Source: Tubiluchus corallicola
Lineage: Eukaryota; Animalia; Priapulida
Length of the DNA stretch: 64,000 nt
Reading direction: 5' to 3'
NCBI GenBank assembly: GCA_030141605.1
Contig: JAQGDQ010000171.1
Location: 248,001-312,000, forward strand
Positions 7,743 to 57,130 of the stretch are shown here, one piece after another. The notes below the pieces were generated by a model. That model was not told the origin of the DNA. It saw only the letters and a list, made by a program, of their open reading frames with translations, and did no database searches. The position numbers were made by a program, and so were the translations under genes. Within the stretch, counting starts at the first letter, position 1. Each line of letters begins with the position of its first letter.

Positions 7743-8112
7743 AATAAGCCTTTTCACAGTTCCAGCGATTGATGATGATTGTGAAAAGGTCAAACGTTAA
7801 GTGTACCAGACAACGCGTTTGTGTACACTTGACAACGCCTCCCAGCCCATGCTATTGTAATAGAAACAGTTTTACCAGTTAGCTAGAACCTTACCTAGTT
7901 CATTTTTTCTTGTTCCCAAGCAAGATCCTGCTAGAAAAATCACTCTACGGACAGACTAATGCATAATTAACTAAAGTCCACAACTGAAGTTACTAAGCTG
8001 ATACGGCAGACGGTTTTTCTTTACCCACATGTAGACGCGTTGCTGTGGTACACTTAACCTTTGACCTACAGCAACTACGCGTGTCCGCAACGAAACTGTG
8101 AAAAGGCTTATT
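7743..8112. mobile_element. MITE family A, copy 1
   Basis: TIRs AATAAGCCTTTTCACAGTT...AACTGTGAAAAGGCTTATT; internal inverted repeat GGTCAAA(C)GTTAAGTGTACCA / TGGTACACTTAACCTTTGACC; second copy at 25593-25944. Confidence 0.85.
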
Positions 8113-9671: not shown

Positions 9672-12600
9672 ATGATAATTCGAGAATTTGCGGCAGCATT
9701 GTTCTGCTGCCTGGTAAGTATCTTTACCATACAGAATATTTAATTGCATTGACTAATCGAGTAACTTACTGACAGGCTGCCTGACTGACACTTTAATCAA
9801 CTTACAGAGCAACCGGCTAACTAACAAAAGAAAAAAGTTGTTGCAGCCTTATAATTTTCAAAGAAGAGCTATTTTATAGTCTGTCATTTTATTAAACGAC
9901 CATTCACCTCACTGGCCAACTGACCGACTAACTGACTGACACTGAGCACGCTATAACTATTTTATACTAATTTGAGTGAAATTGAAAAATAAACAAATAT
10001 TAATGTTGATCGAGTTGCTACAAAAAATTGTTTTCAAATCTAAGCACTAACGAGGCAAAATTTTCCAGGTTGCCAAAACGTCGGGATTCTCTTTTGGCTA
10101 CAGTTCAGGATACGGTGGTGGAGGCTACAGCGGAGCTGGGGGTTATGGTGGGGGAGGTAGTCATGGAGGACATAGTGGAGGGTATGGGGGAGGAGGATAT
10201 GGTGCAGGGGGTTATGGGCTGAGCTATTCAGGTGGATATGGGGGTTATTCTGGAGGGCACGGTGGGGGCTATGGAGGACATGGTGGGGGCCATGGGGGTC
10301 ACGGAGGAGGTCACGGAGGCCATGGAGGATATGGCTATCAGCCCTTGTATTACTATGGCTATCTTCATAAGCACACGACTACGACGCATGCACCGTATGT
10401 ATACTTCAGACGTCACACTGTTCCATACGAGGACCTGTACGAGTCAACGTACACCGACCATTACGTGTTTCACACCCCAAGTCCATGCTACGGATATGGG
10501 TGCAAAAAAGGTGACAGTTACGGGTACGGCGGTAGTGGCGGACATCAAGGCGACTCATACGGTTATGGATCCAGCGGTTATGGCGGTCATGGCCGAACTG
10601 GTTATGGTTCTGATGGGTACGGAGGCTACGGTTCGGACTATGGAGGTCATGGCGGGTATGGCAGGACAGATTATCTTGACGGTTACGGTGATACTGGGTA
10701 CAGCAGCGGAGGAAGCAGTTACGAACACAATTCTGTTAACAGAGGATATGGTCAGAACTCGTACGGCCAAAGCAGCGGATACGGCAAAGAATCTCATTCG
10801 TCTAACAGCTACGAATCAAACGAAATAACAGGTACCTAATTTGACCAAAGATTAAATGCACGACATTTTTTAAACAAACGACGCTAAAACTCTAGAGATT
10901 ATTTTGCATTTATCAGTTTACGAGAGTAATGTAGGAATAAGTACTATACTCGCAACCAACTGTGTGATGACCAGCCGTAAATATTTTAAGTTCAGTTAAC
11001 ATTGGCACAAGCATACCTAGTGCTGCTAAGGATCATAGCACGCAATAAACCTGTCACATTGCTGAGATCAAAGATCAAAGTTACAAATTTCAATGTCAGA
11101 GCTGTAATTTCTATAGCAAACAAAAGATGTGTCCTCAACGAGCTTGAAGGACAAATTAAAGGATCACAGCAAGGTACAAGGTTACTAAATTTCGTGTGTG
11201 TCGAAGACAGGTGATAAAAAATAAACTTATTTTTGGTAAAGGGACCGTTACGTGCTATACCCCGATTGGCCTTGTTTTAGCGATATATACAAAAAATACA
11301 CCGGAACTGTGGATTTTTCAGTCAACAGCCCAGAAAAAATTTGTAGATGTCAGATAGCGGTTATGTCAGAACTGGTTATGGTTCTGATTAGTAGGAAAGC
11401 TACGGCCGAATTGGCCACGCTAAAGAGACAGATTATAAATTTAGGGAAACTCTAACAACTAATAATTAGTTGTACACATTAACGTACAATGTGTCAACCA
11501 AAACTCTAAATGTTTTAGATATCAAAACAACATGCGATGGACATTATAAAACATTACGAATTGATCTGACTTTCAAAAGTGGTTTCTACGGTAAGATATT
11601 CGCGAAAGGCTACTACGGAGTGGAGAGATGCTCGGCCCAAGGTGATGGCTCTTATCATCTTAGTTTCACACTTCCTCTGGATGGATGTGGTACACAAGAA
11701 TCAATTGATGTTGATAGGGTAAGCATTTCACAAACATTTAGAATAAGTTAAATTACTAGATCAAAAATCGTGCGTTTTATACCTTTGTGTGTAATGATAA
11801 GTCACCCTTTTCGAATAAAATAATAGTTTTCGGTTATCTCATTTCATACTTACGAGTCTTCTTATGTTCTCTTTTTGTTACTTGAGCATTTAATGCGGGT
11901 ATAAAATGATTCATAATGTCATAGAGAAATACGCTCTCCGTTCGTTGAGCTTCAGTTTCAACGATTACTTGTCAGGAGTACAACGTTTGTTAGTTTGTTG
12001 TACGCTCTTATATACGTAGTGATCTTTATCCTTCAAAAGGCCAGATTTACCATTATGATGTATTTGCCATTAGTTGTTTCATAACTCATAGATTTCCTTC
12101 CAAAAGTCTCTTCAAGTCTTTTTTAAGTTCAACTTCACCAATAAGGCTTTTAAAAAAATTTCAGTCTTCTGGTTATGGTGGTTATAGTAGTGGATACCAG
12201 CATAAGTACACATACAAGAACACGTTAGTTGTAATGGAACACAGTGGATACGGATACGGTGTTCTTGAAGCAAAGGATCGAGCCTATTCTGTCTACTGTA
12301 CCATTGAGGACAAGAATCAGAACCAGTACCAGCAACCTACAACTCAAAGCTACGGGTATTGTATAATGCCTTAGTTTTCTACCGTGTACAGCTGTGCACA
12401 TGTTGCTCAATAACATTGAGACTATAAACAGTAGGAGCATCAATTTTATTAAACCAAACTTTACTCATTTTTATATTTGCCCTTCGGAGTGTAAATTGAA
12501 GAAAATTTTTACCTGCTTTGTGCGAAGTATTACAAATCTTCAAAGAGTAACACATTTAATTATTTTTTGTGTCTTTTAAGTCATTTAGATTGTGTAAAGA

Positions 12601-15600
12601 AAATTTAAACTTAAAAAATAATTAATTTTTATGAATACCTATTAGAATTAATTATCCATCTGCATTATTAATGCTATTACTTCATGTGTATCAACTATAC
12701 TGTTAGGTGCAATTAGTCTGTGTGAATAATTAGTCTGTGCGAAAAATTAGTCTAACACAGACTAATAACACTAAACAGCGTAGTGAACATTCAATTATAG
12801 GTACATGACAGTCGTTGCTTCAAATTTTCATTTTGCATCTGCAGATATATGATAACTTTTAGTTAAAGTATTCATTTTATGTTTTTCAGCTATGGATCAC
12901 AATATCAGCAACAGAGTCAACATCAATCAACTCAGCAGCAACCTCAAGCACCCAACGTCTACCTCAAGGTCGTTGATGGCCATGAACCGTCCGCCCAACC
13001 AACAACTGGTCTAGTGGTGGGAGAGTATGCTTCGTTAGTCATTTACTACCAACACACAGGTATGACAAATTTTTTGCTTAAATTAACAGCAATATTAATA
13101 AATTTATAATCTTTATTACAAGATGATTGTGACGGATGGCATGACCACAATGACTAACTTTTTGAAAATAAACTTCTAATTGGGAAAGAAATTATGTGAA
13201 AAGTCGGGACTGGTTCCGCATGGCCACTAGACTACTCGGACGACTATTTACAAATCCCTGCACTCTTTTGCCAGCTTTTAACATCAATGTTTACAGTCTT
13301 GCATCAAATGAACTTGTACGTTTATTCCTGTCCTAGATAATACCCTAGAATCTAGATAAATCTGTGAACACTCAAATTTTGTTTTAGTGCAGTCTTTTAT
13401 TTCAAACACTGAGCGCTTTAAATAGTATTGACTTTGTTACTCTTGCTACTTATTACAACATTTTTGTACATTGTGGTCACCATTGTTCTGCTTCTGCCTA
13501 GCGTTTCGCTCCCACTAGGTGAGAATATACATCAGTTGTAAAACTGTCTGTTTCAAACCTAGTTATATGTTACATCTTCAATAAATTATGATGAAACCAT
13601 TTCCAAACTTACATTTACCTCTTCGCATTGATCTCCTTTCGGTTAAATTTAATATTTAGTTGTTGATAATAACAATAACATTTATTTTATAATTGCTGTT
13701 CTCGGTGTCTATTTCTTCGTTTTTGAAAACGAGGTGATTCCCAGATTCGAAACTTCTTTACCTAATTATGGTCGCTGATCAATTCATTGTAATGATGGAC
13801 GTGGTATACCAGCTAATAATAATATCATTAATGAACTTTCAGATCACTATGATGTAGCAGTAAGCAACTGTTTTGCGCACGATGGAACTGGTTATTACAA
13901 AGTGCTGCTCATTGACGAAAATGGGTAAGGTGAAAAAGGTGACGCAAAAAATGCACCAAAGTTTTGATCACGACATTATACGGAAAAAGTAACAGAATCG
14001 ATTAAAAAGCGCTACACTATGTAACAAACGTCTATGTATAAACACGAAAAATTTTAAGTCATTCCGTTAGCTTTCTTCAAACATACAGCAGTTTTATGAC
14101 AACAAGTCAAAAAAGTCGAAAAAACTTTGTGTCACTATTGCTGAAATGTACAGCAAGTGGCTCTACTTGCCCAACATTTTCACTTCCAACAGCTGACACA
14201 TTTTTTTCACTTCTGTAACGTGTATTTTCGTCCTGTATTCAACCGTTTTTACCTTTAGTTCCTGTGTATCAAACAGTTCTGTGTTGCCATTATACTCTTT
14301 CTCTGGAAATTCCAAATAGCGTAATACAAATGATTAAGTCACATTTTTTCTTGGCAATAGATCTTTATCAGTGCTTGGAATTTCTCTGCTGATAACCATG
14401 TTGTAAACTGGTTAATTCTTTTACTGTTTTACTTTCTGTCTTGACTTCTATATAAGTCACTGAACGTGGCCATTTTTCAGTTGAATGTTAGCTGACATTG
14501 TTCAGGCATTTACATTTTCAACATGCAAACACATTTCGGTCATTAATTAAAAACCACTAAAATTATAATCAGGTAACTTTCATAGCCAAACGCTATATAT
14601 TGCATTAATCAGCTGTGAAATTTTAACTTTGTGTGCACTCGCTTCCAATATTATTGTAATCTAAACAGCGACACAGTTTTCTGCGCCATCCGGTATATCC
14701 TTAATATAAGTCAGTATATGAGTGGCAATAAGAAATCTGCAATTGTGCACTAAACTTAGAGGTCCAGTATACTGTAAAAATGGAAAGAAATTGAATCTGA
14801 ACTGATCTGGGGATCTATTCAATCCAAGCTGAATAATGTATGCACCTTGTAGCTCACAGCCCCTACGTTTTTGGTTCAAATCCAAGTAGTTTACAAATTC
14901 TGTTTTAACACAGGTGTTCAGCAAACCCAGAGCACGTCAGCCAGCTACGTGAAGACTTTGAAAACAGTGGCTACTCTAATGATAAATCTATCTACACCTC
15001 ATTCCGAGCGTTCAAGTTTCCCGACAGATACAACGTTTACTTTCAGTGTAGCATTGAAATATGTTACGGAAGCTGTTATAAGGTACCCGGATTTTATTAC
15101 CAATCGACGCATTTCTTGTAGAGAAGCACTTTGCTCTTCAGTTTTCGTCATCATTTGCGTGCATAAAAATCAATTAAGGAGCAGAACAGATTGAAACTGT
15201 TGCTATTGGTATTAATGTATTTAAACCCAGTTAATTATATTTTCATATATCTATGGTACAGCACATTGTAATTACTTGTGCGCTTAGTTAGTTTTATTTA
15301 CAACAAAACTTTGTTCAAGGATAGAGTTTCGACACATGGCTATTAACTCTATTTACATCTGCTTGACTCTATTCAGAAAATGAATATCGTTTTTTATTAT
15401 TGCCCGCGTTCCTTTTCAAATAAAAATTTTGTGCCAAGAAATTGATAATTATTTACATGTTTCAGCAAAAAATAAAATATGAAGGTTTTAGATGGTGGTG
15501 TGTGTGCAGATGATTATAAGCTTCAGAAATTTGGTTGCAACTTTTTTTTTAAAACAAGGTTAAGTCTTGCTTGAAATCTAGAAGATACATAAATGCCACC

Positions 15601-17076
15601 TATTCACGAATTAATTCTTTCTTTTAGAAATCATGTAGTCCGGGAGAGGTACAAGGCTACGGTCAGCAAAACGAGGTGCAACACGACAGGTACAAACGAT
15701 CAGCAGTTGGAAATGGCACAGAAGAACAGCAGACAGAAGAGAAGCACACCGTCGAAGCAAAGGAGCTGTTTAGAGCTCTTACTATAATATTGCCAGGCGA
15801 AGAGCCAGATCCATCAAGTAAGTTAAGCGTTGTGAGTTACTGATCGATGATGTGACTAATTATTAAACGTTTCGAATAAGATTACTGTCTAGAATAATGA
15901 TGATCATTAGATTTACAGAGAAAAATTTAATTTTTTCGAACCCAGGTTACCTTTTCTCTGTTAGCCTAATGATCTAGTCCATTAAAGCAAAACCGGATCC
16001 AATTCTTAAACTGTAAATCAAAAACATCAGCTCTTTAAAATACTGAAAGGAAACATACTATTTTTTCAAAAAATGGCTTGTGTGAAAGAATTACTGCCAC
16101 GCAAACATAATTTCGCGTGCACTAGCGCCTGCATTTTGAAAACGCATTTCACAAAAACAGGTGATGTACCTCTCAGCTCAGATGTGTTAGTTTGTGACGA
16201 ACTACACACGTTCGACAGCTCATGCGTGAGCACAGTATTAAATTTGAAATTTGAATTTTTATCTTAAAACCTCCCTAGTTTTAGTACACCACGCTGAATT
16301 TCTTACAGTAGCACTGTACTTCAATTTTCGGTTTCGCAAACACGTGCAACAGGCTCATGAAAGATTTTATTTTTGAAAATTATGTTAGTTTGTGATGTCA
16401 TCAATAGTTGGGCTCGCCCGCCGTTAATTAAGTTTTTTTAACCGATCGTTTAATTATCAGAAACGCTGTTGTAGTATTAATTGTGTTACAACGTATGCTT
16501 TTATCATATTGAAAATGGGGTGGTATGTGAAAAATCACCCTGTCGTCTTTTAACTGTAATCAGGTTTTCACATTACAATGTTCTTGAAACAGGTTTTTAA
16601 ATAACGTAAGCTACTAGAAAAAGCCCCTCGGGCACAAACGTGGATAACAAGAGCAGGATAACCAGCTAGGATCAATAGGCTTACTGTTTATAATCACGTT
16701 ATTGCAATTGTAACGATATAAGGCGCCTTAACACCATTTCAATGTTGTTCGCTTAGGACAAGTGGAAGTAATATTATACATGTATCATGTACTCATATCC
16801 TGTATAGGGTTTTTTGCGAACTTCCACTAGTCCAACCTTATTCTTAGCATTACCATGCCGCTAGAGGCATTGAGTTTTCAGGGCTTCATTATTTCAAATG
16901 TATTTTCAGCATTCACTAAAGGAACTTACCTGCAGAATACACAAGAAATGTGCATTTCCAAGGCTGGCTTCGCCTGGGGAATAGTCATCATGGGCGCCAT
17001 CTTGATCATCGCCATCATCGTCTGCGTGCTGTTGTGCATACGAACCAGACAAGCAAAGGAGCTCTCGGGGTGCTGA
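9672..17076 (+). CDS. Cuticlin/ZP-domain type I membrane protein with Gly/Tyr/His-rich N-terminal region (~657 aa, 9 coding exons)
   Basis: Exons 9672-9713, 10069-10831, 11519-11718, 12165-12355, 12890-13059, 13843-13924, 14914-15082, 15628-15817, 16910-17076; all GT-AG with compatible phases (1974 nt). Signal peptide MIIREFAAALFCCLVAKTSG; GGY/GGH repeats; ZP-N (IKTTC...FYGKIFAKG...RC...LPLDGCG...NTLVV...YSVYC); ZP-C (VSNCFAHDG...LIDENGC...FRAFKFPD..VYFQCSIEIC); furin site RYKR; C-terminal TM FAWGIVIMGAILIIAIIVCVLLCI. Confidence 0.92.
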
Positions 17077-23088: not shown

Positions 23089-26000
23089 CTACAGTGATGA
23101 CTCATGATAACTTGCTACCTCATTTCCGTTTTCTGATTGGTTAACATTTCTATCTTCTTCTTCTTTTTCATCACATTTGTTTTCGTCTTTGCTTGGTCTT
23201 TTGCAGCAGGTGAAGCAAGGTATGAGACAAAGTAGCACTGCAGCAGACGTCAAAACAGCTCCAGCTACCACATATGACGTCACAAAGTCCTGGGTGAGGT
23301 CATATATCATGCCTTTAAATTCATAAAAATGGTAACCTCAAACGTTAAAATAAGATCATTATGAGTAGATGAGATTGCTGTCTAAAAAATGTGTTTCGGT
23401 TCAATTTAAATATGTTAAATTACTTTGCAAAAACTATTCAGTTGTAGATCTTTCATTAAAATATATGTTTCAAGCCTGATTTTAAGTAAATTTATAACAT
23501 TATTCAGTTGTTTAAAAGTTATGTTTCAATTCCACTTAAATATGTAAAATTACCTTGAAAATGCTATCATTAAATTAAATTTTATTAACTTTCATTAAAT
23601 TATCTGTCTCAAACCTGATTTTAAGTGGAATTAGTAACATTATTCATTCAATCACTTTTTAACAACGTGTAAGTGCAATGTTAAGGTTCAATGATTTTCA
23701 ATAAAAATTCATCTTATTTCATATCATATCATGCATACATGGTAATCTACGTGCTATACTGCAGCTAGATAGCCATTAAGATACCATGACGCATGATATA
23801 CCTGCTACAGGTGGTCCAATCATCATCGACACACCACGACATAAGCATAACAGACCAAAAGCATTTGTTAGCTTAAGCAATCCAATTGCCTCCACTAATA
23901 TTATAGACGTCAGGCAAATAAATGCAGCTGAAAGGCAACAAAATATATAGACACTGCATGCAAGAGTTTGCTTAACTCCAGCTCGTCAGACACCACAAGC
24001 AGACATAGACTGCATCATAGAGGATAGCTTAAATGATTCCAGTCAGAGCCAAAGCACATACTCTATGAACAGGGCACAGCTTTACCTGCCAAGGGAGGTC
24101 CTACCATAGATGTAGCACCTCGAAACAGACAGAGTAGTCCAAAGGCGTTGGTTAATTTCTCCAGACCCATAAGATTAACAAGAATCACAGACGTCAAGCA
24201 AATGAAGGCAGCTGAAATGTTATTAGTTTTTATGGCATATTTTTGCACCTGCTTCTTTTAAATTATAATATTTAGCACGGCCGGCTGTAGGTAGTTTGAC
24301 GCCCCGGGCATAAAGGTTTTTAGCGCCCCCTACCCCTCCTTCGCACGGTCCCTTTCTCCACCGTCTCAAGCATACCACAGAATTGATTTTTTTATATAAT
24401 ATTATAATAAAATATAACAGTACCTGTGTGCTACGCTTACACATGCATTACAGTTCACTAATTAAGTGTCTGTACCTTTCTGCAGCTGGTCTGAATTGAA
24501 TTTGAAATTGAATTTATCACCCCAATGTACGCTCGGGTCTTCGGCAGCAAGCACACTTCTGCAAATTCTGCTACTCTTGGCTACATTTTCCCTCAACTTT
24601 TTCATCAGAAAAATTTTCAAACCCCAATTCCTTTTTTCACGTATCTATCCATTTCACTAGTTTCATCATCTTCACAACTCTGATCTGGTTGTATCTTCAT
24701 CAGAGATATTTTTAAGATAATTTATGTTTTATTTAATTAAAGTGCTGTGCACTTAAGCAGCAATTGCACATACATTATGTTATTACGTATTCTAAACTTT
24801 AAAATTAAAGAGTTACTTCCAGAATTTGGCGTTCCCACAAATTTGGTGCCCTAAGCAACTCGTAAGCAGTTTGTTTATGATAGAACCGGTACTGATCTTT
24901 AGTAACGTAAGCACAGCCCGTTACTGAAATGACTTTATTTCAGGAGTTTTCACTCCAAGGCCATCAGCTGCAGGTCAAAATGCACAGAGAAATGGTGGCA
25001 TCTTTATAGCTCACATACAATCACTTTGAGATTTAAGGGAACTATATTCACTTTTTTCAGTTAAACATACGTAAATAATCAACCAAACTGTTTTGCTATA
25101 TTTTAATCCTTAATTGAGTCTCTTATCGGTTATCTCGTATATTGTTGACTACTTAAAGGGAAGACAAAGTTATTAAGTACGTCAACAAAAAAAAATTCAC
25201 ACAAAGTTATATTACTTAGCAGTACGCTTACCTGTTTGAAAGACTTACGTAATTAGAAAAGAAAATTCTTAACAATGTAAAATATTCACGCCACCTGGTA
25301 AAACGGCACTGCATTGTCATCCCGTTGTGCACAAAGTTGTTCACCAAAAAACATATTATTGATCTTACTGACAATATAAAGCAATTTAAACTTTTTCATA
25401 ATTTGCGAAAAGTGTGCTACGAATGCTCTGACTATTTTTTCAGACTTCGTACAATGTTCGAAACGACTCACTCTCAAAATCCACACAACGAGTCACGGGA
25501 GTCTAAATTTACAAGTTCTAGACACCCGTTGCTGCCCACGTAAGCTCTGTGCGCAATAAAACAGCATGTAAGTGATATAAAATTTCAAGACGAATAAGCC
25601 TTTTCACACTTCCAGCGATTGATGATGATCATGAAAAGGTCAAAGGTTAAGTGTACCAGACAACGCATTTGTGTACACTTGGGCCAGTTTTAACAGCTAG
25701 CTAGAACCTTATTTAGTTCATTTTTATTATTCCAAAGCAAGATCTTGATAAGTAAATCACACTATGCACAGATTAATGTATAATTAAGCAAAGTTCACGT
25801 AAAACAACTGAAGTTACGGCAGACAGCATTGCTTTACCCACATGTCACGTTACGATTGTAGTTAAGACGCGTTGCTGTGGTATACTTAACCTTTGACATA
25901 CGGGAACTACGCGTGCGCACAATGAAACTGTGAAAATGCTTATTTTAAGTGTTATTTGTGAAGATTGAATTCTTGTGCTTTAGCGTTACTCAGTGTAAAT

Positions 26001-28882
26001 ACTCACCAACAGATGATCCAAACACTGCACAATAGACTGCCAATGACAGGTAAGACGTGTACAGAGGTAAAAACAATGTGGACACGCCACTTATTAGCAA
26101 ACTAATATTGTTCACATAAAGAGCATTAACTCCAGGTCTATCACAGATCCAACCGACAATGACACGGCTTACAGTGTTTGTGATTCCAATGATGGACAGC
26201 AAGTAAGCAGCATCAGTTGCAGGAATACCAAGCTCAATAGCCCTTGAGTTGGTGTACATGAAGGGTATGTAAAATCCTATAAAAGCCAGAATGTTGGCGA
26301 TGCAAATTAATAAAAACACCGGATCTTTTAGCAAGGACAAGTCTAACATTTCCTTAAAGACGCTTCTCATTTCAGGTTCACAGCAGCGTGCCATTAAGCC
26401 ACTTTCACTCAAATCAATAACCGTTCCTTCTTCATCAGCCACACCTGGAATAGCCGTAATGCTAGTAATATATTCCATTTCACTTTTTGCTGCCTTGTAC
26501 TCTGGTAAGTTCATTATGCTACCACTAAAAAATATATCTTTCCTGTACATTGGACGTCTGTACTCTTCTTTTATGTCTTTGCCTGCTAGAGGTTTGTAGC
26601 CATTTGGTCGTAGTAGCTGTGAACCTCTAATATGAACGGTGTGCTCACTCTTCACGCGTTGGAGTAATTTATTCTGAGGTAGCTGCAATGCTTCTTTGTC
26701 TATGGCTGTTGCACTGGTACTCATCCTTCTGACTTCTGTATAGTTATCTGGCACGTCACTTTTGCTGTCCAGTTCGTGGTCACTCGAAATTACTATGTCT
26801 GGAATTGCAGGTCGCTCCCGAGCCACAGTTGACTGATATCCTGAGTCTTCTGTTTCGCGAGAAGAATCCGAAGATTTGCACAGCTCCCCTTCAGTTAACT
26901 CATTACCTGGAGTATTATTACAAAGAAAGGTAGCTCTGTTGTCGTCGTGTATAGTAAATGTTCTTACTCTTTCCATTTTCACTTCGTGCATTCTTTGCAA
27001 TAGTGGTTTTTCTGTCACCTTGATTTTCTTCGCTTTCAACGGTCTCATCAGGGCACCGCATACCATCCCGTTCATCACCAAGCCAGCCACGATCAATGTA
27101 GCACCCTTCCAGTCATACGTGGTCAGTAGAAATTTAGAGAAAGGTGCAAAAACAAACGTCCCTATTCCAGATCCACAGACAGCTAAACCTGTAGCGAATG
27201 CTCTTTTTTCCTCAAAATAATACCCGACACTCACGATTGCAGGCAGGTACATAAATCCAAACGATATTCCTAAAAAGACCAAACGAAATTAAATATCTAT
27301 ATTATTTAGTTATAATAATCTACCTCGTAAACGACACGAGTCCTCAGGTGGATTTTTAATCGTTTAAAAGAGGTTTTCTGACCTAAATTACTGTTAATAA
27401 AGCTTATAATCTGATAATAGGAAACAGTATATAGATATAGATTTAGATTTACTTCTCACAAAAAGCGATGCACATTGAATGATACGAAACAAAAATTATA
27501 AGATAGCATCGCAAAAAACAAATTGCTTACACTATAATGCTTCAATGTGTGTTTAAAGAAAATCTTGTAAGCACAATAATGATAGTGAGATAGTTATTTT
27601 GTAATTTCATATATTTTATGCTTCTAATCTTGCAGTTAAAATGTTAGAAACTCAGTAAAACGAAATTAACCTGCCATAACCCCATACGTCAAAATTAAAA
27701 CAGTGACATTCGGCGAAAAGATGCTAAGAATGAATGAGATTCCTGCCATGACGCTGCCAAATATTGTCACTGGTCGACATCCAAATCTGTTCACCAAGGC
27801 ACTGACTACAGGACCTGTGAAGAACCAAAAGTAGTCTGTAGAAGTAACAGCAGCACGTTTGTAGGAACAATTCCCAAGTTTTTGCATTTGCACAATAAGC
27901 ATTTACTGAATTTTGCATAGTTTGATGAAAAACTGCTCTCACTAAGCAGCGATTATGTTGTATTTGATAATTTTTGTAGGCCTCTACTCCCAACACAATC
28001 GTTTTTCATGCAAAATTAATACGAAATGCATTTGCTCACCTTAACCAAAAAAAAATGAAAAAAGCTTTCAGTAATTACAGTGTTTGCACTGTAACAATGT
28101 ACAGTATCAATTGTGTGAAATATGCTAATGCAGAAAATTTCAACTATCCAGACTCAACACTCTGATATATTATGGCCTCAAAGTCATCTCTTATTTTTAA
28201 GGAGAAATTCCAGTTAAAAGATGAAACGACCTTAATTTCTCTTTGGCTGATCGGTTTGCTTTTCCTGGAACTCAGCACAGCAGAAGGTTCTCTTGGGCTG
28301 TAGCAAGCAGGCGATCAATAAAATAGTGTGTACGATCACGCAAGTGTAAACCAGACTAAGCTACTCACTAGGCTAAGTTGGAGTGCCGGAAAACGGTGTG
28401 TTTTTCTTAATTTTATCCAATTAAATCAATTATAAATGTCAAAAGAAATAGCCGAGATTCTCCTTCATAGAACAGTACCTAATTTGTAATCATTTAGTTA
28501 TGTATGTGTTCATACAGTACCAGAAAAGTAATAGGTCTTATATATTTTAAATGGCGTGGTCCTGTGACAAACTTGTGAAACCAGTAAACATTGAAAACCT
28601 GTCAAACGTACCTGCAGTAAGATAACAGCCAGCAAGCAGTGATCCGACCATTGACGTTTTAGCAGCGCTTTCATTGAAGTACTCCTTAAATTCGACCAGC
28701 CAAACGCCATAGCAGTAGGTGATACCATCAACGAGAAAATTTAATATAAAACTTGCGAAGACAATCATCCAACCCCAGCTGCCATCTGGAGGCTGAGGAA
28801 TAAGATACTCCGGATCGAGTCCCTCCAATTCCGGATCAAAGTCGTCATCGCGTGCTGGTCTGTACTCGTCGCGCTGGCGCAT
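23089..28882 (-). CDS. SLC16 / monocarboxylate-transporter family MFS protein (MCT12/14-like invertebrate type, ~675 aa with one of the two alternative exons)
   Basis: Exons 28612-28882, 27671-27814, 26007-27269, [24086-24211 or 23802-23927], 23089-23312; all phase-1 GT-AG junctions. SLC16 motifs [49 protein letters not shown], large central loop with [10 protein letters not shown], and GPPLAG-MIYD. An acceptor at 28903-28904 indicates a further upstream exon. Confidence 0.93.
23400..23650. repeat. Degenerate ~120-bp tandem duplication in the last SLC16 intron
   Basis: TTAAATATGT.AAATTAC ... CTTTCATTAAA ... CCTGATTTTAAGT ... TAACATTATTCA occurs twice (~23400-23508 and ~23526-23649). Confidence 0.7.
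23802..23927 (-). CDS. Duplicated alternative exon (copy B) of the SLC16 gene, encoding the TM10-TM11 region
   Basis: 126 nt, flanked by tttcag| and |gtatat, same phase as exon 24086-24211. Translates to [42 protein letters not shown], 31/42 aa identical to copy A. Not in the ORF track. Confidence 0.85.
24276..24894. mobile_element. hAT-type MITE in an SLC16 intron
   Basis: Ends CACGGCCGG...CCGGTACTG with GCGCCC-type subterminal motifs; 8-bp TSD ATATTTAG (24268-24275) / ATCTTTAG (24895-24902). Confidence 0.7.
25593..25944. mobile_element. MITE family A, copy 2 (in an SLC16 intron)
   Basis: Colinear with 7743-8112 over its full length, same orientation, same TIRs with a few mismatches. Confidence 0.85.
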
Positions 28883-47300: not shown

Positions 47301-47668
47301 GGGTACAGTCTGCAGTCTTAAGTTTAGACTGGGCAAAGTTGGAAAGGGTACAGTCTGTAGTCTTAAGTTTAGACTGGGTACAGACGGAAAAGGTACAGTC
47401 TGCAGTCTTAACTTTAGACTGGGTACAGACGGAAAAGGTACAGTCTGCAGTCTTCAGATGGAATAGGTACATCTGCAGTCGTAAATTTGGACTGGGCACA
47501 GATGGAAAGTGTACAGTCTGTAGTCTTAAGTTTAGACTGGGTACAGACGGAAAAGGTACAGTCTGCAGTCTTAAGTTTAATCTGGATACAGATGGAAAGT
47601 GTACAGTCTACAGTCCTAAGTTTAGACAGGGTACCAATGGAAAAGGTACAGTTTGAAGTCTTAAGTTT
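47301..47668. repeat. 45-bp minisatellite (~8 units) overlapping the DEG/ENaC stop codon
   Basis: Unit GGTACAGTCTGCAGTCTTAAGTTTAGACTGGGTACAGACGGAAAA, seen as 15-aa repeats in the spurious ORFs. Confidence 0.9.
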
Positions 47669-49737
47669 CCTGTAACGGTGGTGAACGCAAGAACTCCATT
47701 TCTGAGGCGCCATATTTGTCATTATTTTTCTCTCCTTGATTCATCACTTTCTTGTTTCTGGCCCGCCGTAATCCCTGCAGCAAAAGCATAACTACATCTG
47801 CGAGAAATTCAATAATCTCGTAAATTGCCAAAACAGACATGCCAATATACAGTCCCAGCAGGCCACCAATGTCACCTGCCAGATCTGCTTCCTTGTAGGT
47901 GATTTCCTCATGGACTTCCTCTACCATTGATGTCTCAAACATGACATGGAGCCAAGCCAGTTCGTTTACGCCATCCACAAGTGACTTTAGAGAATAGTTG
48001 TTTTGTTTTTCATCCGTCCATGCACTGTAGCGCATCAAGTACCCGGTTATATTTGTGGTATTGTGGTACTCTCTGACAAAATTTTTCCATTTCCTTGTTC
48101 GATTATGGTCTATCGTGTGACTGGACTCCCACGAAGTATGATACCTAAAAGCATTTTACAGAATAGATTTATAAGTTAATTTGTGAGTTAATTTGTGAGG
48201 TTCAATTTAACGGGATTTGCAAAAATTGCTAATGTCGACGTTAAATTAATATCAATGGTTTTTTTTCATGTAAGTACATGTATCATGCAATGTAGCAGTA
48301 TCAATTTTTGCAGTCAATTAAATTTAAAGCCTGTATTTTCAAGTAGTTCAGAGCCTGATTATACATTCTATATATAGAAGAAGTCTGACTACCTTATTTA
48401 GCTCGCAATTTTATGTTATAATACAGAATATGAAGGAAGTACATAAAATAAATAGATAGCTGAACGAAGAAATAAATAAACACCTAAAATAACAGATAAG
48501 CAAATAAACAAACAAGCAATTCCAATGCGGAATAACTTCGCGTTATGGTGCGTCTTGAATGACCAAACGTGAATGCAACTAAACCTTTACCTAGTTTGAT
48601 TACATGGTGCAGGACAGTTACACTCATCTTCTTCAATTTCAATCATCATAAAACAATCATCATGATCCGATCCAAGTAGAGTTTCACACATTGGAGGTTG
48701 ATCATCGATTGTCCAACCAGCCTCTTGTAACAGTTTGTCTGTCAGTGGGATGCTGTTGCTGCTGCAGTTACATTTCTGAATCAACTTTTTTTGTTCGCAA
48801 GTCTCCCTGCAAGTCTCAGTCCCGTATTTGGTGCCAAACGTTTCCTTAAACACATCTCTAAGTTGGCCTTTGTTCGCTTCTTCTTCTTCTATACAATGAT
48901 TTTTCGCACGCACTTTGTACACGTCTGTTCGCTGTATTTTTGCAGTGTTCAAGGTTCCAGCACGCACGAAGAATGGCTTGACACCAACATAACTGTAGCC
49001 AGGTGGAGTAATGATGACATTGAATCCTGGCTGAGGAGTATTTAATGGCATGTATTCTTCCAGGCTTGCATTCAATAAAAAAGTAAAACCGATCTTTGCC
49101 ATGGAGCGGTTCACTCTCATTCCCGCCCGTCGTGCCCCATCTGGAGTCCTTCTCGAAGGATTGAAGGTAAAACAGTTACCCTTATCTAGCTGTATGTTAG
49201 TCGTCTCAAAATGTTCAGCTAATTCACAACCTCTTAATTCTGATTTCTGTTGAGGCAACTTACACAACAATATAGTATCTTCTAACTGGTGACCGATCCT
49301 TAATCGCTGAGTTTGGTTCAATTTAGCTGCAAATTCTGAATTGAAGGCTTCATAGTTAACTAATCCCAAGCGGTAAAATCGTCAGATACATTATAAAATT
49401 CCGGCATAAATTTTTTGTACTCGCTAAAGCGCATAGAATTTTTGTTGCAAATGGTCACAGATGGTGCAGCAATTGTTTGGCTACTTAGTCGAAATCTAGC
49501 AGCAGTCTTTACAGGACGTGAGAGATACTTTTTTAACTGTATTCCACTCTGAACGCAGAACAATGATGTAGCCGCTCCTATGAGAGCAATCCAAATGCAT
49601 TTTCTCACCAAACTTTTTGAACGTTTTATATTACCTATGCCATGAGTAGCTGTATTGTCTGCTAGTGTAGCTGCTAATGTCTTGATGGACGATTCTTCTC
49701 CACTTTCAATCTCAGCATTTTCGTAATTTTCTTCCAT
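47661..49737 (-). pseudogene. DEG/ENaC (amiloride-sensitive sodium channel family) gene with one frameshift; pseudogene, null allele or assembly indel
   Basis: Exon 48591-49737 plus exon 47661-48144 (GT-AG, phase 2). Motifs: pre-TM1 NTATHG, TM1 KCIWIALI, PSVTICNKN, GHQLEDTILLC, GNCFTFN, Cys-rich thumb ending CNCPAPC, and TM2 LAGDIGGLLGLYIGMSVLAIYEIIE. The frame breaks between ORF 49360-49737 and ORF 48587-49369; adding one base restores a 543-aa protein. Confidence 0.8.
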
Positions 49738-52700
49738 ACCTGTCCAAAAGAAGCTTTTACAAAAGACGACAGAAGAGATTTACGTCTTGTAACTTACCAC
49801 AAAATTTAAATGCAAAAGGGTCCAACCGTTATTTTTTGACAAAATAAACCGAATTAGCACTTTGCGTTTCTTGTAAATTGCCTTCTAAGTTCATTCCTCT
49901 AAAGGAATCTTGGATCGGCCTTCCTGGTTAACTGACCTTCCAAGTTAACTGCAAATTTTCGGACATGAACTTTTATTAAAATTTCCTGTAAAAGGTTGTT
50001 GCGGCCATGGCGTTCTCTTCTTTACAAGACAACAGTGTGTTGAAACTTTAAAATCCCTAAATTTCCAAACCACTTTTTGTGACAGCACTATCTTTACTAT
50101 TCTGCACTCTCTGCAGAAACATCAACACTAGAAGACAATGAAGATGAACGTTCGAATGATTACAGCCGGATTTGCTGAAGCTGTCGACTTTTGTAGTTTG
50201 TATACGCATCATTACGATGACATAAAATTTCCCACGAGACCATACTTTTAATCTGATAAATTTGTCTCTGATCATTAGGCAAAATTGCTTTATAAATAAA
50301 TAAGCATGTAAAAGAATGAAAATTGCCATGCACCAATGTATTGCATTAAGCTAAATGGATTCCATTGGAACCATTTTTCGTTGTTGGACATCGCTAATTA
50401 CAGTGGTAGGTATACAGCATTTCCCAATGGCATCAATATCGTATTGATTTGCATGCATCTGAACTACGAAGCCCATTGATGATCAGCAGATAAATTTGAA
50501 GATTATATACTGCGTTCAAATCTCTAGTCAAAGCAAAAGACACAATAGTGACAAGTTGATTTATCTGGTTTAATAGCTTATATCGCAACACACACTTATT
50601 GCAAAAAAATTACAAAATTACAAAATACAATTACAATTTACTGTGGTTCAATGAATCATTTGCATAAAATATAATGAGCATTCCTTTCCTAAATATCTAC
50701 AAATTGCTATTGATAATGAATTCCAAAGCTCTATTGTTTAAATTTTGTATTTTATGGATGACAAAAAAGAGGAACCTTGTAAGTATAAACTTGCAAATGC
50801 TGACTGCGTGACGCGCGCGCTTTTTAACAAGTTACTTAAAATGACTGTTATCCGGACAATCTCTAAACACAGTTTATGTTTGTGGCATGAAAGGTCATGC
50901 ATTTGGATGATCGTTAACACAAGCAGGATAAATGAGAACAATGATAGATCCTGCATGAACCATGCTAGATTGGTCAGGTGACTCAGGTTTAGGAAGAAGA
51001 CCTTTATGTACCAGTAGTTTTATTTCCACATCATTTTATGTTGATAGTGGTGATTAATCTTTCATTTTAAAACACATGTTCACATAAATGGGCACATTGA
51101 AGGTATCTCTGCACAGTCTCTGTATAAACTTCACCTGTTCTTGATTTATCAGAAAGTTACCATGCTGCCACAATGGGTGATCGAACAAAAAAACGATCGA
51201 AACCGGAAACCTGGCCAAGTTCCTCCTGATGTCACAGACTGTAATGTTGTTTAGTGTGGTTAACTGGTGTGTGTTCCCTTGATAACGCTTTTCACGCAGT
51301 GTATCCTAGCAGGATCCTCTTCAAGAGCTAAAGGGTTTTCATTTGGCGAAGAAGAATTCGACGTATTTTGCTGATTCGGGATATTTTAATCTGAATGAGT
51401 GAACGAAAAGGCAGGATATATTCTATAAGGTTAATTTGTTTGTTAGTGAAATTCAGACATAGTAACAGCCTTCTTTAAACGCAGTTTTATTTCTTATAAG
51501 TTCCTCATTAACTTTTTGTTGATTAGATGCAGATGCACTTACCACACAAACGCATTAAACACAAAAAAAGAAAAACATCCTGATGAAATTTACACATTCT
51601 AATTTAAAAACGTGTTCTAAATAAGTAGACTCTGGTTCATACTTTTAAAAACTATTAGTATTACTTACCATATTCTGCTATGCAATATTAAGTTATGCTA
51701 CTTTAGATTTCTTTAGAATCCGAAGAAAAATAGTTAAAAATAGATAAATTTGCACAGAACTGGGCGCATTTAGCTAACGCCTCTCAGGTATAGAACCAAA
51801 TGGGATTATTCTCTATCTGTGTACTTACACTACAGGTCAATAGCCTGTCTGAAAAATTAGAGTAACACGGTTCGGAAGTAGCCTAATTTTACCCTGATTT
51901 TTATTAGTATAAATTTTAATAAAGGTGTGGCCATGGTATTGAGATTTGCACCTGTCGGTAAACTTTAGATCGCTGATCATAAAAATACTTTAAAAACTAA
52001 AAACAAGGCAGAAAACCTTTGATAAGTGAACAAAAACACGTACGTGACACTAAAATGCACAAATGTATTTACAATTTTTACAACAGTACAATATGCTATA
52101 CCCAGCAGTTACAGTTAAATTAATGCCTGCGTAGTGAAGCAGAAATTGGCTCTGAAAAAAAAATTAAGGATGACTGCTGTATCACACAACCACAACTATA
52201 TATGAAACAAAATCAAGAAAAAACGCCAAAATAGTGAAAGCAGGACATTCGTTTCCTTGTAACATCACCTGAAGGAGATGTTCATTAAAACCTTTAACAT
52301 TAAAGTTTAAAGCTATAATTTGTTTCTGCACCTATATTTTTGATTTGCCCTGACACATTTGCCTCCAACAGGGTATGCTTGGCCATCACTGATTGTGTGT
52401 TTGTTATGATTTTCAATATTATTAAAGGAAATAAAGATATGATTTTTTTACTTACTTACATTAATTTTCAGTTTTAGGCTATCACAAAAGTTCAAAGACA
52501 CGCACTTGTAACTTAGTAATGTTTTATGCGTATTGTGCTTGATTAGTATAGTAAAAATATATGAGCATTTACTTATCCAGGATAAGAAAGAAAACAGTTG
52601 ACTAGCATTATTGCACGTTTACTTTCTTAGGTGACAGACCTACTGCTAATGTTGAATTGTTGAGCCAGAATTGGAATTTAGCCAATTACCATCGACAATA

Positions 52701-53001: not shown

Positions 53002-54672
53002 TCAGACAATCTCATCTATATTGCCTGCCATGATGTCCTGATAAACATCAATGAACATATAATCAGATAATGATTCGTAGCCACTAACAGCTTCCAGCAT
53101 TTGCTGTAACTGTTGGCGCAGTTGCTGAAAACTTGGTCTGTCATCGGGATTTTCACGCCAACAAACTTCAATCAGTTCATACACCTCTTCTGAGCACCCC
53201 GGAGGACACTCCATACGGTATCCATTTCTGATTGCTTCAATGACCTCAACAGCTGTTTTGTGTTCCGGGTAGGGCGTGACCCCAAGAGTTACGATCTCCC
53301 AGAAGAGTACCCCAAATGACCAGACATCTGATTCTATGGAATATTTGTTAAACTGCAAAGATTCGGGTGCCATCCAACGAACTGGCAAACGCTTTTGTAA
53401 CCTCTTCACATTAGACCGGTACTTGACAACGTCGTCTTCTCTTCCAAATTTACTAATCTTACACTTAAGGTCCGCAGAGACAAGAATACTCCTTGCTGCC
53501 AAATCGCGACACAGGCATTTATGCAGGGCTAGATGTTCAAGCCCTGACACAATGTCGGAAGCAAATGACACTGCCATTCTAACAGTCAAGTGAGCAAGAT
53601 TTGAATACTGGTCCGTATTCCCTGCTTCTTTCAAAAGAAAAGATTTTAAATCTCCGTTCTCCATGTAATCTTTAATCACTACTGTACCTTTTTCTGCATC
53701 ATTTATTTTTGTGATAAAACCTAATAAATTTTCATGTGCAGGAATGTCTTTTAAGATCTCCAATTCCTTTTCAAGATACGAAGTAATAAAATGATTGCGC
53801 TTTTCCTTTATTGTGTATTTAGCTGTGACTATTTGCTGCTCTCTAATTCTTTCTGGCTCAGTATTGTGCAAGATAGCTTTGTACACGTGATGATACGTGC
53901 CTTCTCCAAGTTTTTCTAGGTAACTTATTTTGTTTTTGTTCACGCATTCATCCGGTCGAGGAGGTAGTGCAGGAACATCGGATACCCGTGGCGGTAGTGG
54001 TGTAACATAAGGAAGGTCGTACACAACTTCTGTTCTCTGTTCTTGGTTGATGGCTACCACACCAGCCATTCTTCCAGGTTCAGTAGCTGATGCAGGCGTG
54101 ATTGTCACTTTGTTGTAGTCTGGTGTTCCGCAGCATACTAACCTACAACATAATGCAGCTGATACAATTGAGGCAATAAGTTCCAGTATACCCAAAATAG
54201 GATATATTATGTGAACACGGCGTGCAATGTTTTCTTCCCAGCAATCTGTTTCGTAACAGCTGGAATGTAATGCTATGATAGAACCTCCAACTATCATTAT
54301 GCAACTTGTTATTGCAGAAAGGATGCACAGTACCATGAAACTGATCCAGATGGGAAGTACGGGCTTTTTCTTTCCTATACATCCCACGATTCCTGTTACT
54401 GTGAACATGATCCCTGCCCATATGCCAATTAGGGCACCATTATAAGAAACCACTATAGAAAGTACAATAACTTCCAGAAGAAGGGCAATTGAACCAAGAA
54501 CCAATTGGACTACTGCTGCTGCAAATGCCACTTTCTTGGTTGTTATATTTCCTGCTGTACGTCTCTCTTGCTCTTGCTGCTGTGTGAATGTCATATTTTG
54601 TACAGACACTTGTTCTGGTACATAATTCAGCGTGTTGCCTATTTTTGCTGGAACCATCGCCATAGCTGGCAT
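53002..54672 (-). CDS. MS4A/CD20-like tetraspan fused to a tyrosine-kinase-fold pseudokinase (556 aa, single coding exon)
   Basis: aa ~46-181: four hydrophobic segments with MS4A signatures ([25 protein letters not shown], extracellular C-x4-[16 protein letters not shown]). aa ~249-527: TK fold ([65 protein letters not shown]). The ORF is uninterrupted. Confidence 0.9.
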
Positions 54673-57130
54673 GTAATTTCAACAAACTGAATTTCCTCCT
54701 AGATTCTAAACATAAAACTTTGTGAAGAGTGAATATCGAGTGACACTGCAACAAAACAAGAAAAATATCATTTATCTAATAACAAACCGGTTCATTTTCT
54801 CTACTGCCAGAATTTTCGGCCAGACGCATGTGCTATGTACGTACTTCACACTCGTACCCTTAAGCTTCCGTAAAGTGACAGTTTAGCAGCTTTAGCTTCG
54901 TCTTTCAAGTAAACGTTTTTCATATTAAAATAAGCCATAGCGAACCCTTAAATGGGCGCAGTACAGTTTTTAGTTTTTAAGAAAGACACGTATTGCCCAT
55001 AATTGATCATTACTTTCTAAACCAATTAAAATAAAAGACGCAACTTTATCTATCCTAGTCGACATGGAGTCCTGTATTTCATCTTATCACAGAGCAATAT
55101 CGCGTCATTTGGTAACACCAATAACTGCGCATATTAGTTGCAGATACTTTTAAAATTAAAAACTCATTTTTGTGCATTATGACATAAACATTTATCACGT
55201 TGTCACCCAATCACTAGTAGATTAAACTTACAGCAACGCACTTTCCTTGTAGTACACATTCGTGTCCGCCAGTTCTACCTATTATATTTCGCAGAACATA
55301 CGTCCAAGCATTACCGTACGAACGATCGCAGACTCGTCATGTGTTTAGTTATCTCGCTATGGTTCACACAATGCCGGCTTTTCTTACGCTTAAGTTGCTA
55401 CTTCTTGGAAAATTCCACTTCGGACTCAGTCTAGCGTGTAGAACATAAATAACTGCTGGCACAGATGTATTAGTTGGCGCAGCTGCCCTAAGGCACACGT
55501 TTCTGAGGACGTATCTGCACTGTGCCACGGTGCCTACAACCGTATAATTACATGATTTTTTCGATATTTTGTGAAGCTCACAGTCTCACTTATGTATGTT
55601 ACAATGCATTATAGTAACACGGAACATTTGCGAACGTATTAATTTTAAGCTGGTATAACGAAGTATCTCATTTAGGCCACCAACTCACATATAATCTAAT
55701 CTGCCTCAGTCTCGCCAAGTGCTAAGGCGCTAAGGCATAATTTCATTAAAGCTGTAACTGACAGAAGTGTAAAATTGATGATTGTTGAATATCGAAAAGC
55801 GCTGCTTAATATGCTTGGCATACCATATAACTCGCATTGTACAATGACGATAACGATTGCTGAAACTTCCTCCTTTGAATTTTTAATACCTAAGAGAAGT
55901 GTAAATCGGTCAAGAAGTACTGTCTTAAAAACACTGTCACTTTTAAACATGAATTCTACTTGTACAACCCTAAGAGTGAATAAGATATTTATTGTACAAA
56001 ATATTTCCAATTTTAATAACACTGTTTCTAATCATAATATATTTGCTTATGAGCTGTACTGGCTTACTGAAGGGGAAAACCACCTACCTGGCTTCTTGTA
56101 TGATGAAATTCGTCAGATTTTGTATCATATGATAACTAACTAATGTAAATATTCTTGTAAATTATTACTAACAAATATTGATGAATTGTAATATGTAATA
56201 AGTGCGAAATAAATCTTATACATATAATAAATAAAAAAAATGAATTGTTAATGTGTGCCTGATCACATCTTCATACTAACTATAGGGCATTTCTACTCTA
56301 CAGTACGACTGCTCGACGATATTACTTCAGAAATCGAGAGGTACAAAGGGTTGTAGACCACATCTGTGGTTGTAGACTTTTTTGCTCAGCAGAATAAAGC
56401 TGCCGTGCTTTTTGAAAGAAACTGTAACTCTCAACAATTGCAGTTACAAGTCGTGTCGTATTTACTTGTTATTTTATTATTATTTATTAGGCACAAAAGT
56501 ATACATTAAGATTAGTAGACAATAAGATTGTATAACTACGAGTCATACGAAGGTTACAGCCATACGACTGTGTGGCCATAGATGACGCAAGGAACTAAAT
56601 TTTGGAACAGGTCACTGCCTGTTAATCTATACACGTACCCCATAGACAAGAAACCAGTAGTAGCAATTCAAAATGTTTCCTATAGTCAGAGTAATACTCA
56701 TTAATGAAAGTACGAGTACATCAATTTTAAATTCTGAACAGCAGATACAGAGATTCTGTTTATTTTACCAACTGGGGCTCTTTTCTCGTATGTATTGTAA
56801 TGATTTCTTTTTCAGCGCCAAATTTTCAGCTTCAAAGATGGTTTTCCTACACTTAAGAAGGGACCATTTCAACCTTTGTAGTTTTCAATACAAAATTGGA
56901 CTCGGGCACTTCAGTACCAGCGCTATTAAATTAATGATGTACATTTTAAACATCGTTGAAGAGCAGTAGCTAACATTTTACACACTGATTTGACGTGAAC
57001 AAAAAAGCAAAAATACTAATTAATGGGTTCAGTAGACACATTTAATAAATAAATTCTGTTAACAAATTTAAGTCACTTTAAGTCACTCATTAGGACAAAA
57101 TGATTTGCTCAGTTAAAGTTTTGTAATATC

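What the first reader, a model, noticed from the sequence alone, without database searches (positions are those of the whole stretch)
23802..24211. Tandemly duplicated, probably mutually exclusive exon in an SLC16 transporter
Seen: two 126-nt phase-1/phase-1 exons (24086-24211 and 23802-23927) encode the same TM10-TM11 segment and are 31/42 aa identical. In the shared [10 protein letters not shown] stretch, 9 of 10 codons differ only synonymously, which points to an old duplication under purifying selection in both copies. Amino-acid differences cluster in the loop (VNLMGLEK vs VEAIGLLK) and TM11 (FRGATSMV vs CRGVSMMI). Established: TM10/TM11 contribute to the MFS transport pathway, so the isoforms could differ in substrate or kinetics. 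Including both exons would stay in frame but duplicate helices. Gene predictors often miss such exons.
Basis: partly seen in the sequence, partly recalled or inferred. Interest (0 to 1): 0.7.

Follow-up and report, generated by a model that had tools for sequence, protein, structure and literature searches.

The report
Recurrently duplicated exon in SLC16 transporter
An invertebrate membrane-transporter gene carries two side-by-side versions of one exon that are likely used one at a time to make two slightly different transporters; clams carry a pair of the same exon that likely arose separately, but the phenomenon itself is a known kind.

Summary
Two 126-nt, phase-1/phase-1, AG/GT-flanked exons (24086-24211, 23802-23927, minus strand) encode the same segment of a 676-aa SLC16 transporter: 31/42 residues identical, silent sites saturated (pS 0.87, pN 0.20). 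The gene groups with priapulid genes (SH-aLRT 100) in the subfamily of Drosophila CG13907. No RNA run was available, so splicing in this species is untested. Relatives supply the evidence: 3 of 80 metagenome loci carry the same exon in tandem, and annotated bivalve isoform pairs (Ruditapes, Mya, Dreissena, Sinanodonta) differ only in this exon; 11 of 11 full-length contig ORFs of that clade hold one copy. Two species also have both-exon models, so exclusion may be leaky. The exon tree favours separate duplications (9.7 lnL) but does not reject one ancient origin (AU 0.24). The exon covers the inner half of TM10, the loop and most of TM11. No frame, steric or pairing mechanism for exclusion was found. 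The substrate is unknown: five of six MCT2 substrate/proton residues are replaced. Verdict: a new case of a known kind (tandem duplicated exon substitution), with probable convergence at one exon.

The parts
24086..24211 (-). Exon 4A, 126 nt, phase 1/1; the family-typical copy (second half of TM10, loop, most of TM11)
   Evidence: AG/GT, open frame; profile score 133.5 bits, above 38% of 138 homologous segments
23802..23927 (-). Exon 4B, 126 nt, phase 1/1; the more derived copy
   Evidence: AG/GT, open frame; keeps all 10 columns invariant in alignment A1; profile score 109.1 bits, above only 4% of 138 segments; A13, L17 and M34 seen in 0 of 138
23928..24085 (-). 158-nt intron between the copies; CTGAC branch-like sites 43 and 100 nt from the 4A donor; AG-free zone only 24 nt
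28612..28882 (-). First coding exon (ATG, SLC16 N-terminal signature D-G-x-W-G-W, TM1-TM2)
   Evidence: aligns to Priapulus P0200
27671..27814 (-). Second coding exon, 144 nt (TM3 to TM4)
   Evidence: AG/GT; weak MFS_1 match
26007..27269 (-). Third coding exon, 1263 nt (TM4-TM6, long cytoplasmic loop, TM7 to mid-TM10); its donor feeds 4A or 4B
   Evidence: MFS_1 E 1.8e-21; MCT1 E 1.4e-26; TIGR00892 E 2e-40, below the cut-off
23089..23312 (-). Last coding exon (end of TM11, TM12, tail, stop)
   Evidence: AG acceptor; both spliced models give 675 aa plus stop

Best explanation
The two exons are an old tandem duplicate inside an SLC16 transporter gene, both kept under purifying selection, and are likely spliced one at a time to give two equal-length transporters predicted to differ at the inner end of TM10, the TM10-TM11 loop and TM11. 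Shown: the duplication, the intact splice sites, the selection, the family. Inferred from bivalve homologues: one-at-a-time splicing. Inferred from position: the swap tunes inner-gate closure or the TM11 wall of the cavity (kinetics or selectivity) rather than the core binding arginine, which lies in a shared exon. Because 126 is a multiple of three and no steric or pairing device was found, the choice is likely set by splicing factors and may leak; transcripts with both or neither exon would give a 14- or 10-helix protein that is likely not functional. The duplication likely arose separately from the bivalve one.
For: pS 0.87, pN 0.20; a neutral exon at 0.5 substitutions per site kept AG, GT, frame and at most 11 residue changes in 0 of 20,000 simulations. 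Same exon in tandem with AG/GT in 3 of 80 metagenome loci (L047, L054, L057; introns 742, 360, 358 nt); L054 and L057 are near-identical, so two species. Between L047 and L057 copy 1 has pS 0.68, pN 0.00 and copy 2 pS 0.87, pN 0.11. Equal-length isoform pairs differing only inside the exon: Ruditapes X2/X3 (13 residues), Mya X1/X2 and X3/X4 (13), Dreissena X1/X2 (14), Sinanodonta (15). 11 of 11 unnamed full-length contig ORFs of that clade hold one copy, 7 copy-1-like and 4 copy-2. Model of the Priapulus homologue P0200: helices 561-590 and 595-624, exon = 576-617. Separate duplication is the best of three constrained trees.
Against: No transcript of this species was seen, so use of 4B is unproven. 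Mercenaria X1 and Ruditapes X1 are annotated with both exons and Mercenaria X4 with neither; I could not see the read support for any NCBI model. 4B is an outlier in the family profile (bottom 4%, three residues unseen in 138 segments) and has a longer branch (0.25 against 0.09), which fits new function but also recent relaxation. No exclusion mechanism was found. A shared origin with bivalves is not rejected (AU 0.24).
Confidence: 0.78

Rival explanations
1. Copy 4B was functional for most of its history but is now a silent or decaying pseudo-exon; only 4A is used.
For: 4B has the longer branch and three residues unseen in 138 homologous segments; its donor GTATAT is further from the usual consensus than GTAAAG of 4A (consensus recalled).
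Against: All invariant columns, both splice sites and the frame are intact; 4B has the better pyrimidine tract; long neutrality is excluded; the one difference inside 4B in run X1's contig is silent (one site, little weight).
Confidence: 0.1
2. The exons are independent cassettes: both-included, either-alone and neither forms all occur at real levels, with no true exclusion.
For: All four forms keep the frame; both-exon models in 2 of 5 bivalve species with multiple isoforms listed and a no-exon model in 1; no exclusion device found.
Against: 0 of 11 full-length contig ORFs hold both copies; 3 of 5 species list no both-exon model; both-included would add two helices to a 12-helix fold.
Confidence: 0.09
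3. Assembly artefact or collapsed paralogue.
For: Two paralogues of this subfamily exist in Priapulus.
Against: The copies are only 63% identical in DNA; one 704-nt contig of run X1 spans both exons and the intron with 2 differences (X1 may be the window's own sample); flanking exons are single.
Confidence: 0.02

Closest known systems
Tandem duplicated exon substitutions / homologous mutually exclusive exons (Martinez-Gomez et al., PMC9741552; e.g. SLC25A3, voltage-gated channels)
   Same: Adjacent homologous exons of equal length and phase; conservative changes; membrane transport gene; convergence between animal lineages is reported as common (passages read).
   Different: No SLC16 gene or CG13907 was found in the main-text passages or in the one supplement file held as text (that file is only 15,271 characters, so tables may be missing). 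Splicing is not yet shown for this species.
Bivalve 'MCT12/13/14-like' gene with isoform pairs in NCBI annotation (Ruditapes XP_060586796/XP_060586803, Mya XP_052805366/XP_052805368, Dreissena XP_052265118/XP_052265124)
   Same: Same subfamily, same exon, same boundaries and phase, 5' copy with E17 and 3' copy without it.
   Different: Window copies are 24-28 of 41 identical to either heteroconch or arcid copy, without preference, and share C4, C27 and M35 with each other; bivalve copies share S4 and mostly C11. Likely a separate event.
Invertebrate long-loop SLC16 subfamily: Priapulus caudatus XP_014662716 (P0200), Drosophila CG13907
   Same: Window gene sits in a clade with Priapulus genes (SH-aLRT 100) and beside the arthropod and lophotrochozoan clades.
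   Different: All listed arthropod, gastropod, cephalopod, oyster, mussel and scallop proteins carry one copy; Daphnia-type loci L016 and L068 and locus L023 span both flanking exons with one copy. CG13907 knockdown did not disturb lactate transfer in two studies (PMC13373199, PMC7203100; passages).
Human MCT1/MCT2 (SLC16A1/A7), proton-lactate symporters
   Same: Closest solved structures (E 1e-54 for P0200); 12-helix fold; TM8 arginine kept.
   Different: Residues aligned to MCT2 Tyr34, Lys38, Asp293, Phe351 and Ser355 are D, Y, N, V and I here, so proton-coupled lactate transport is unlikely.
OGDH exons 4a/4b, exclusion by distant branch points (PMC7969005)
   Same: A branch-like CTGAC lies 43 nt from the upstream donor, under the ~50-nt steric threshold.
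   Different: No long pyrimidine tract or AG-free zone follows (24 nt), and the bivalve introns lack such a site among those scanned.

Membership tests
Tandem duplicated (homologous) mutually exclusive exons | Adjacent exons of detectable homology, same length and phase | tested here: met
   126 nt each, phase 1/1, 31/42 identical
Tandem duplicated (homologous) mutually exclusive exons | Each copy has its own splice sites and gives an open full-length frame | tested here: met
   AG/GT on both; both models 675 aa plus stop
Tandem duplicated (homologous) mutually exclusive exons | Both copies under purifying selection | tested here: met
   pS 0.87, pN 0.20; neutral simulation
Tandem duplicated (homologous) mutually exclusive exons | Each copy is spliced alone between the shared flanking exons in this species | not testable with these tools
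   No RNA holder listed; met in bivalve homologues by annotation and contig ORFs
Tandem duplicated (homologous) mutually exclusive exons | Double inclusion absent or rare | tested here: inconclusive
   0 of 11 contig ORFs, but both-exon models in Mercenaria and Ruditapes; untested in this species
Steric (distant branch point) exclusion | Branch point under ~50 nt from the upstream donor followed by a long pyrimidine tract without AG | tested here: not met
   CTGAC at +43 but AG-free zone 24 nt
Docking-site/selector (RNA pairing) exclusion | Competing intronic pairings stronger than chance and conserved | tested here: inconclusive
   0 of 9 region pairs in the window beat all 12 shuffles; 2 of 9 in L057, 0 of 9 in L047; only 600 nt of flank scanned, no close relative for conservation
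SLC16 (monocarboxylate transporter family, MFS) | N-terminal D-G-G-W-G-W signature and TM4-TM5 signature | tested here: met
   DGSWGW in exon 1 and [17 protein letters not shown] in exon 3 (signatures from PMC7228944 section 8)
SLC16 (monocarboxylate transporter family, MFS) | Best matches among solved structures are SLC16 proteins; 12-helix fold with long TM6-TM7 loop | tested here: met
   13 of 13 hits are MCT1, 2, 8, 10 or SfMCT; model of P0200, pTM 0.69
Proton-coupled lactate MCTs (MCT1-4 type) | Lys38, Asp293/Arg297 pair, Phe351, Ser355, Tyr34 (MCT2 numbers) | tested here: not met
   Only the arginine is kept

The most novel reading that the evidence does not exclude
This one exon is a hotspot: it was duplicated separately in at least three animal lineages (a priapulid-like animal, bivalves, and the arthropod-like source of P0098), each time giving a switch that swaps the inner gate and TM11 of an orphan SLC16 transporter, with a parallel loss of the acidic loop residue 17 in the 3' copy of two lineages. 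The isoform pairs would be natural probes of what this subfamily carries and how it gates.
Probability: 0.4. Interest if true: 0.55.

Novelty: new member of a known kind. Interest (0 to 1): 0.4.

Why it matters
It adds the SLC16 family to the list of transport proteins tuned by duplicated exons, a case I did not find in print. Repeated duplication of the same exon in distant animals would mark TM10-TM11 as the part of these transporters that evolution tunes. Farmed clams already offer isoform pairs, RNA-seq and tissue series, so the idea can be tested now. For annotation, gene models that include both exons or read through the intron (Mercenaria X1, Ruditapes X1, Tegillarca) need a second look. 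It does not break a rule: convergent homologous exon pairs in transporters are a described pattern.

Tried and rejected
No whole genome is held for this window, so paralogues in the same species were not checked. Run search: no RNA holder listed. X1 behaves as DNA (unspliced 704-nt contig over both exons; no GT-AG joint among those shown) and X2 laid nothing on the exons; neither bears on expression. A search with exon 4B alone found 1 protein among 2 candidates. Cluster members of Daphnia, Hypothenemus, Tetranychus, Polyplax, Nymphon, Haliotis, Patella, Saccostrea, scallops, Mytilus, Octopus showed no isoform pair at this exon; annotation alone cannot show absence from those genomes. My recalled idea that insect CG13907 has such a pair (the Arg-Gly against Gln-Gly types) found no support: in the tree the Gln-type proteins fall outside as separate genes (they were chosen as outgroup). 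Frame-shift/NMD exclusion is rejected by length (126 nt). Steric and pairing exclusion: not supported (bivalve coordinates there were one base off, which does not change the scan). P0393's three copies are three fused paralogues, not tandem exons. Paper searches for MCT1 gate residues and MCT8/MCT10 TM11 returned 0. Earlier scan findings: three look-ups, nothing.

Full report
Observation. On the minus strand, 24086-24211 (4A) and 23802-23927 (4B) are 126-nt exons with AG acceptors and GT donors, separated by 158 nt, between a 1263-nt exon ending at 26007 and a last exon starting at 23312. Thirty of 41 whole codons give the same residue; DNA identity is 79 of 126. Silent sites are saturated (pS 0.87) while replacement sites are not (pN 0.20; Fisher p 1.5e-11), and the best of 100,000 shuffles reached 13 identities. 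A simulated neutral exon kept both splice sites, the frame and at most 11 residue changes in 1.2% of 20,000 runs at 0.25 substitutions per site and in none at 0.5 or 1.0. Both copies were therefore constrained for most of their history; recent loss of one cannot be excluded this way. There is no third copy in the window. One 704-nt contig of run X1 spans both exons with two differences, one intronic and one silent in 4B; X1 may be the window's own sample.

The gene. Five coding exons (28882-28612, 27814-27671, 27269-26007, 4A or 4B, 23312-23089) give 675 residues plus stop with either copy. The big exon matches MFS_1, and 13 of 13 solved-structure hits are SLC16 proteins. With the exon removed, a quick tree of 45 proteins and 528 columns puts the gene in a clade of six with two Priapulus caudatus genes (SH-aLRT 100), beside an arthropod clade holding Drosophila CG13907 and a lophotrochozoan clade. 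The source is thus likely a priapulid or close relative (inference). Against MCT2, residues aligned to Tyr34, Lys38, Asp293, Phe351 and Ser355 are D, Y, N, V and I; only the TM8 arginine is kept (alignments, carried to the window through P0200; residue roles from passages of PMC7228944). Knockdown of CG13907 did not disturb lactate transfer in two fly studies (passages of PMC13373199 and PMC7203100). The substrate is unknown and probably not proton-coupled lactate.

What the exon encodes. The window's spliced protein could not be folded, so I folded the close homologue P0200 (pTM 0.69). Its helices 561-590 and 595-624 are TM10 and TM11; the exon is 576-617. It starts one residue after the Phe351 position, includes the Ser355 position (I in both copies) and the Glu360 position (V or I). 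The 11 differences are V8I, N12E, L13A, M14I, E17L (end of TM10 and loop) and F29C, A32V, T33S, S34M, V36I, L40V (TM11). TM10 and TM11 help form the central cavity of MCT2 (PMC7228944, passage), and TM11 residues contact inhibitors in SfMCT (PMC9814091, passages and section 10). Position 34 lies on the same helical face as the invariant R30/G31 and G37 by spacing; that it faces the cavity is inference, as no coordinates were available. 4A is ordinary for the family (above 38% of 138 segments), 4B is derived (above 4%; A13, L17, M34 in 0 of 138) but keeps all ten invariant columns.

Evidence from relatives. No RNA of this species could be tested. A scan of metagenome contigs kept the best 80 of 222 loci; 3 of 80 carry the exon twice with AG/GT at the same phase; many of the other 77 are transcripts, paralogues or short contigs and cannot show a pair. 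L054 and L057 are near-identical, so this is two species, both bivalve-type; each copy is conserved between them under saturated silent sites. In NCBI annotation, isoform pairs of equal length from one locus differ only inside this exon in Ruditapes, Mya (two pairs), Dreissena and Sinanodonta. Eleven unnamed full-length contig ORFs, 66-86% identical to the Mercenaria protein, each hold one copy: 7 copy-1-like, 4 copy-2; these four are near-identical, probably one species. Against strict exclusion: Mercenaria X1 and Ruditapes X1 include both copies and Mercenaria X4 neither; I did not see read support for any model. Tegillarca's model has both copies with the intron read through. Among the 150 best of 901 representative hits, P0098 is a raw genomic frame with two copies about 190 nt apart; its 3' copy groups with CG13907 (92/81), and its splice sites could not be read in DNA. 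Loci L016, L068 and L023 span both flanking exons with one copy.

One origin or several. In the exon tree (41 columns, 49 rows, poorly resolved) no window copy groups with a bivalve copy. With other rows free (31 rows; 18 dropped as redundant, long or ambiguous), separate duplication scored -840.3, shared origin -850.0 and a crossed control -849.0; AU p 0.74, 0.24 and 0.33. Separate origin is preferred, not shown; gene conversion could also hide an older shared event. Holding 4B with the bivalve 3' copies (p 0.295) or 4A with the 5' copies (p 0.061) was not rejected either. In the first exon tree 4B paired weakly with the annotated exon of P0200 (86/80), a hint that the pair may be older than this species.

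How exclusion might work. All four splice forms keep the frame, so decay of frame-shifted RNA cannot enforce it. A CTGAC lies 43 nt from the 4A donor, under the ~50-nt steric limit described for OGDH (passages of PMC7969005), but the AG-free zone is only 24 nt. No region pair in the window beat all 12 shuffles in a duplex scan (0 of 9). I therefore favour choice by splicing factors with some leak (inference by elimination).

Literature. Searches for this case gave no paper describing it; I read passages of PMC7359550, PMC9803972 and PMC9741552 without finding one, and the single supplement file held for PMC9741552 has no SLC16 or CG13907 entry, though it may be incomplete. The library lacks most subscription papers. 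PMC9741552 states that such events are enriched in membrane transport genes and often convergent.

Verdict. Real, well supported, and of a known kind. The added value is the recurrence of the same exon pair in distant lineages of an orphan SLC16 subfamily. Confidence in one-at-a-time use 0.78; interest 0.4.

Noticed in passing
window 53002-54678 (-): Single open frame of 558 aa joining a CD20-like multi-helix stretch (E 2.8e-4, below cut-off) to a tyrosine kinase domain (E 3.7e-68); no intron in the kinase.
   Followed up: partly
window 47661-49779 (-): DEG/ENaC (ASC) channel gene in three frames; the first two overlap at 49360-49381, so there is a very short intron, a frameshift or a sequence error there.
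   Followed up: partly
window 10051-17076 (+): Gly/Tyr/His-rich exon(s) followed by a ZP-C/cuticlin-like exon and a transmembrane exon; likely a cuticle ZP protein (Pfam matches below cut-off).
   Followed up: partly
window 23379-23646: Tandem duplication of about 140 nt (75% identical) inside the intron after exon 4B.
   Followed up: no
window 25593-25944 and 7743-8112: A high-copy repeat with internal inverted arms, possibly a small transposon; very deep in run X1.
   Followed up: no
L047 6170-6200 and L057 760-770: The motif TACCCCACC occurs in the intron between the two copies in both bivalve-type loci, whose introns otherwise do not align; a candidate splicing element, not tested against chance.
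   Followed up: no
proteins P0274, P0019, P0272, P0268, P0018: Single-copy oyster, mussel, scallop and abalone proteins resemble either bivalve copy 1 or copy 2 in TM11, as if the two versions were sorted among lineages or paralogues; too few columns to test.
   Followed up: no
protein P0178: An 824-aa SLC16-like protein whose whole C-terminal half appears twice; gene-model error or domain duplication.
   Followed up: no
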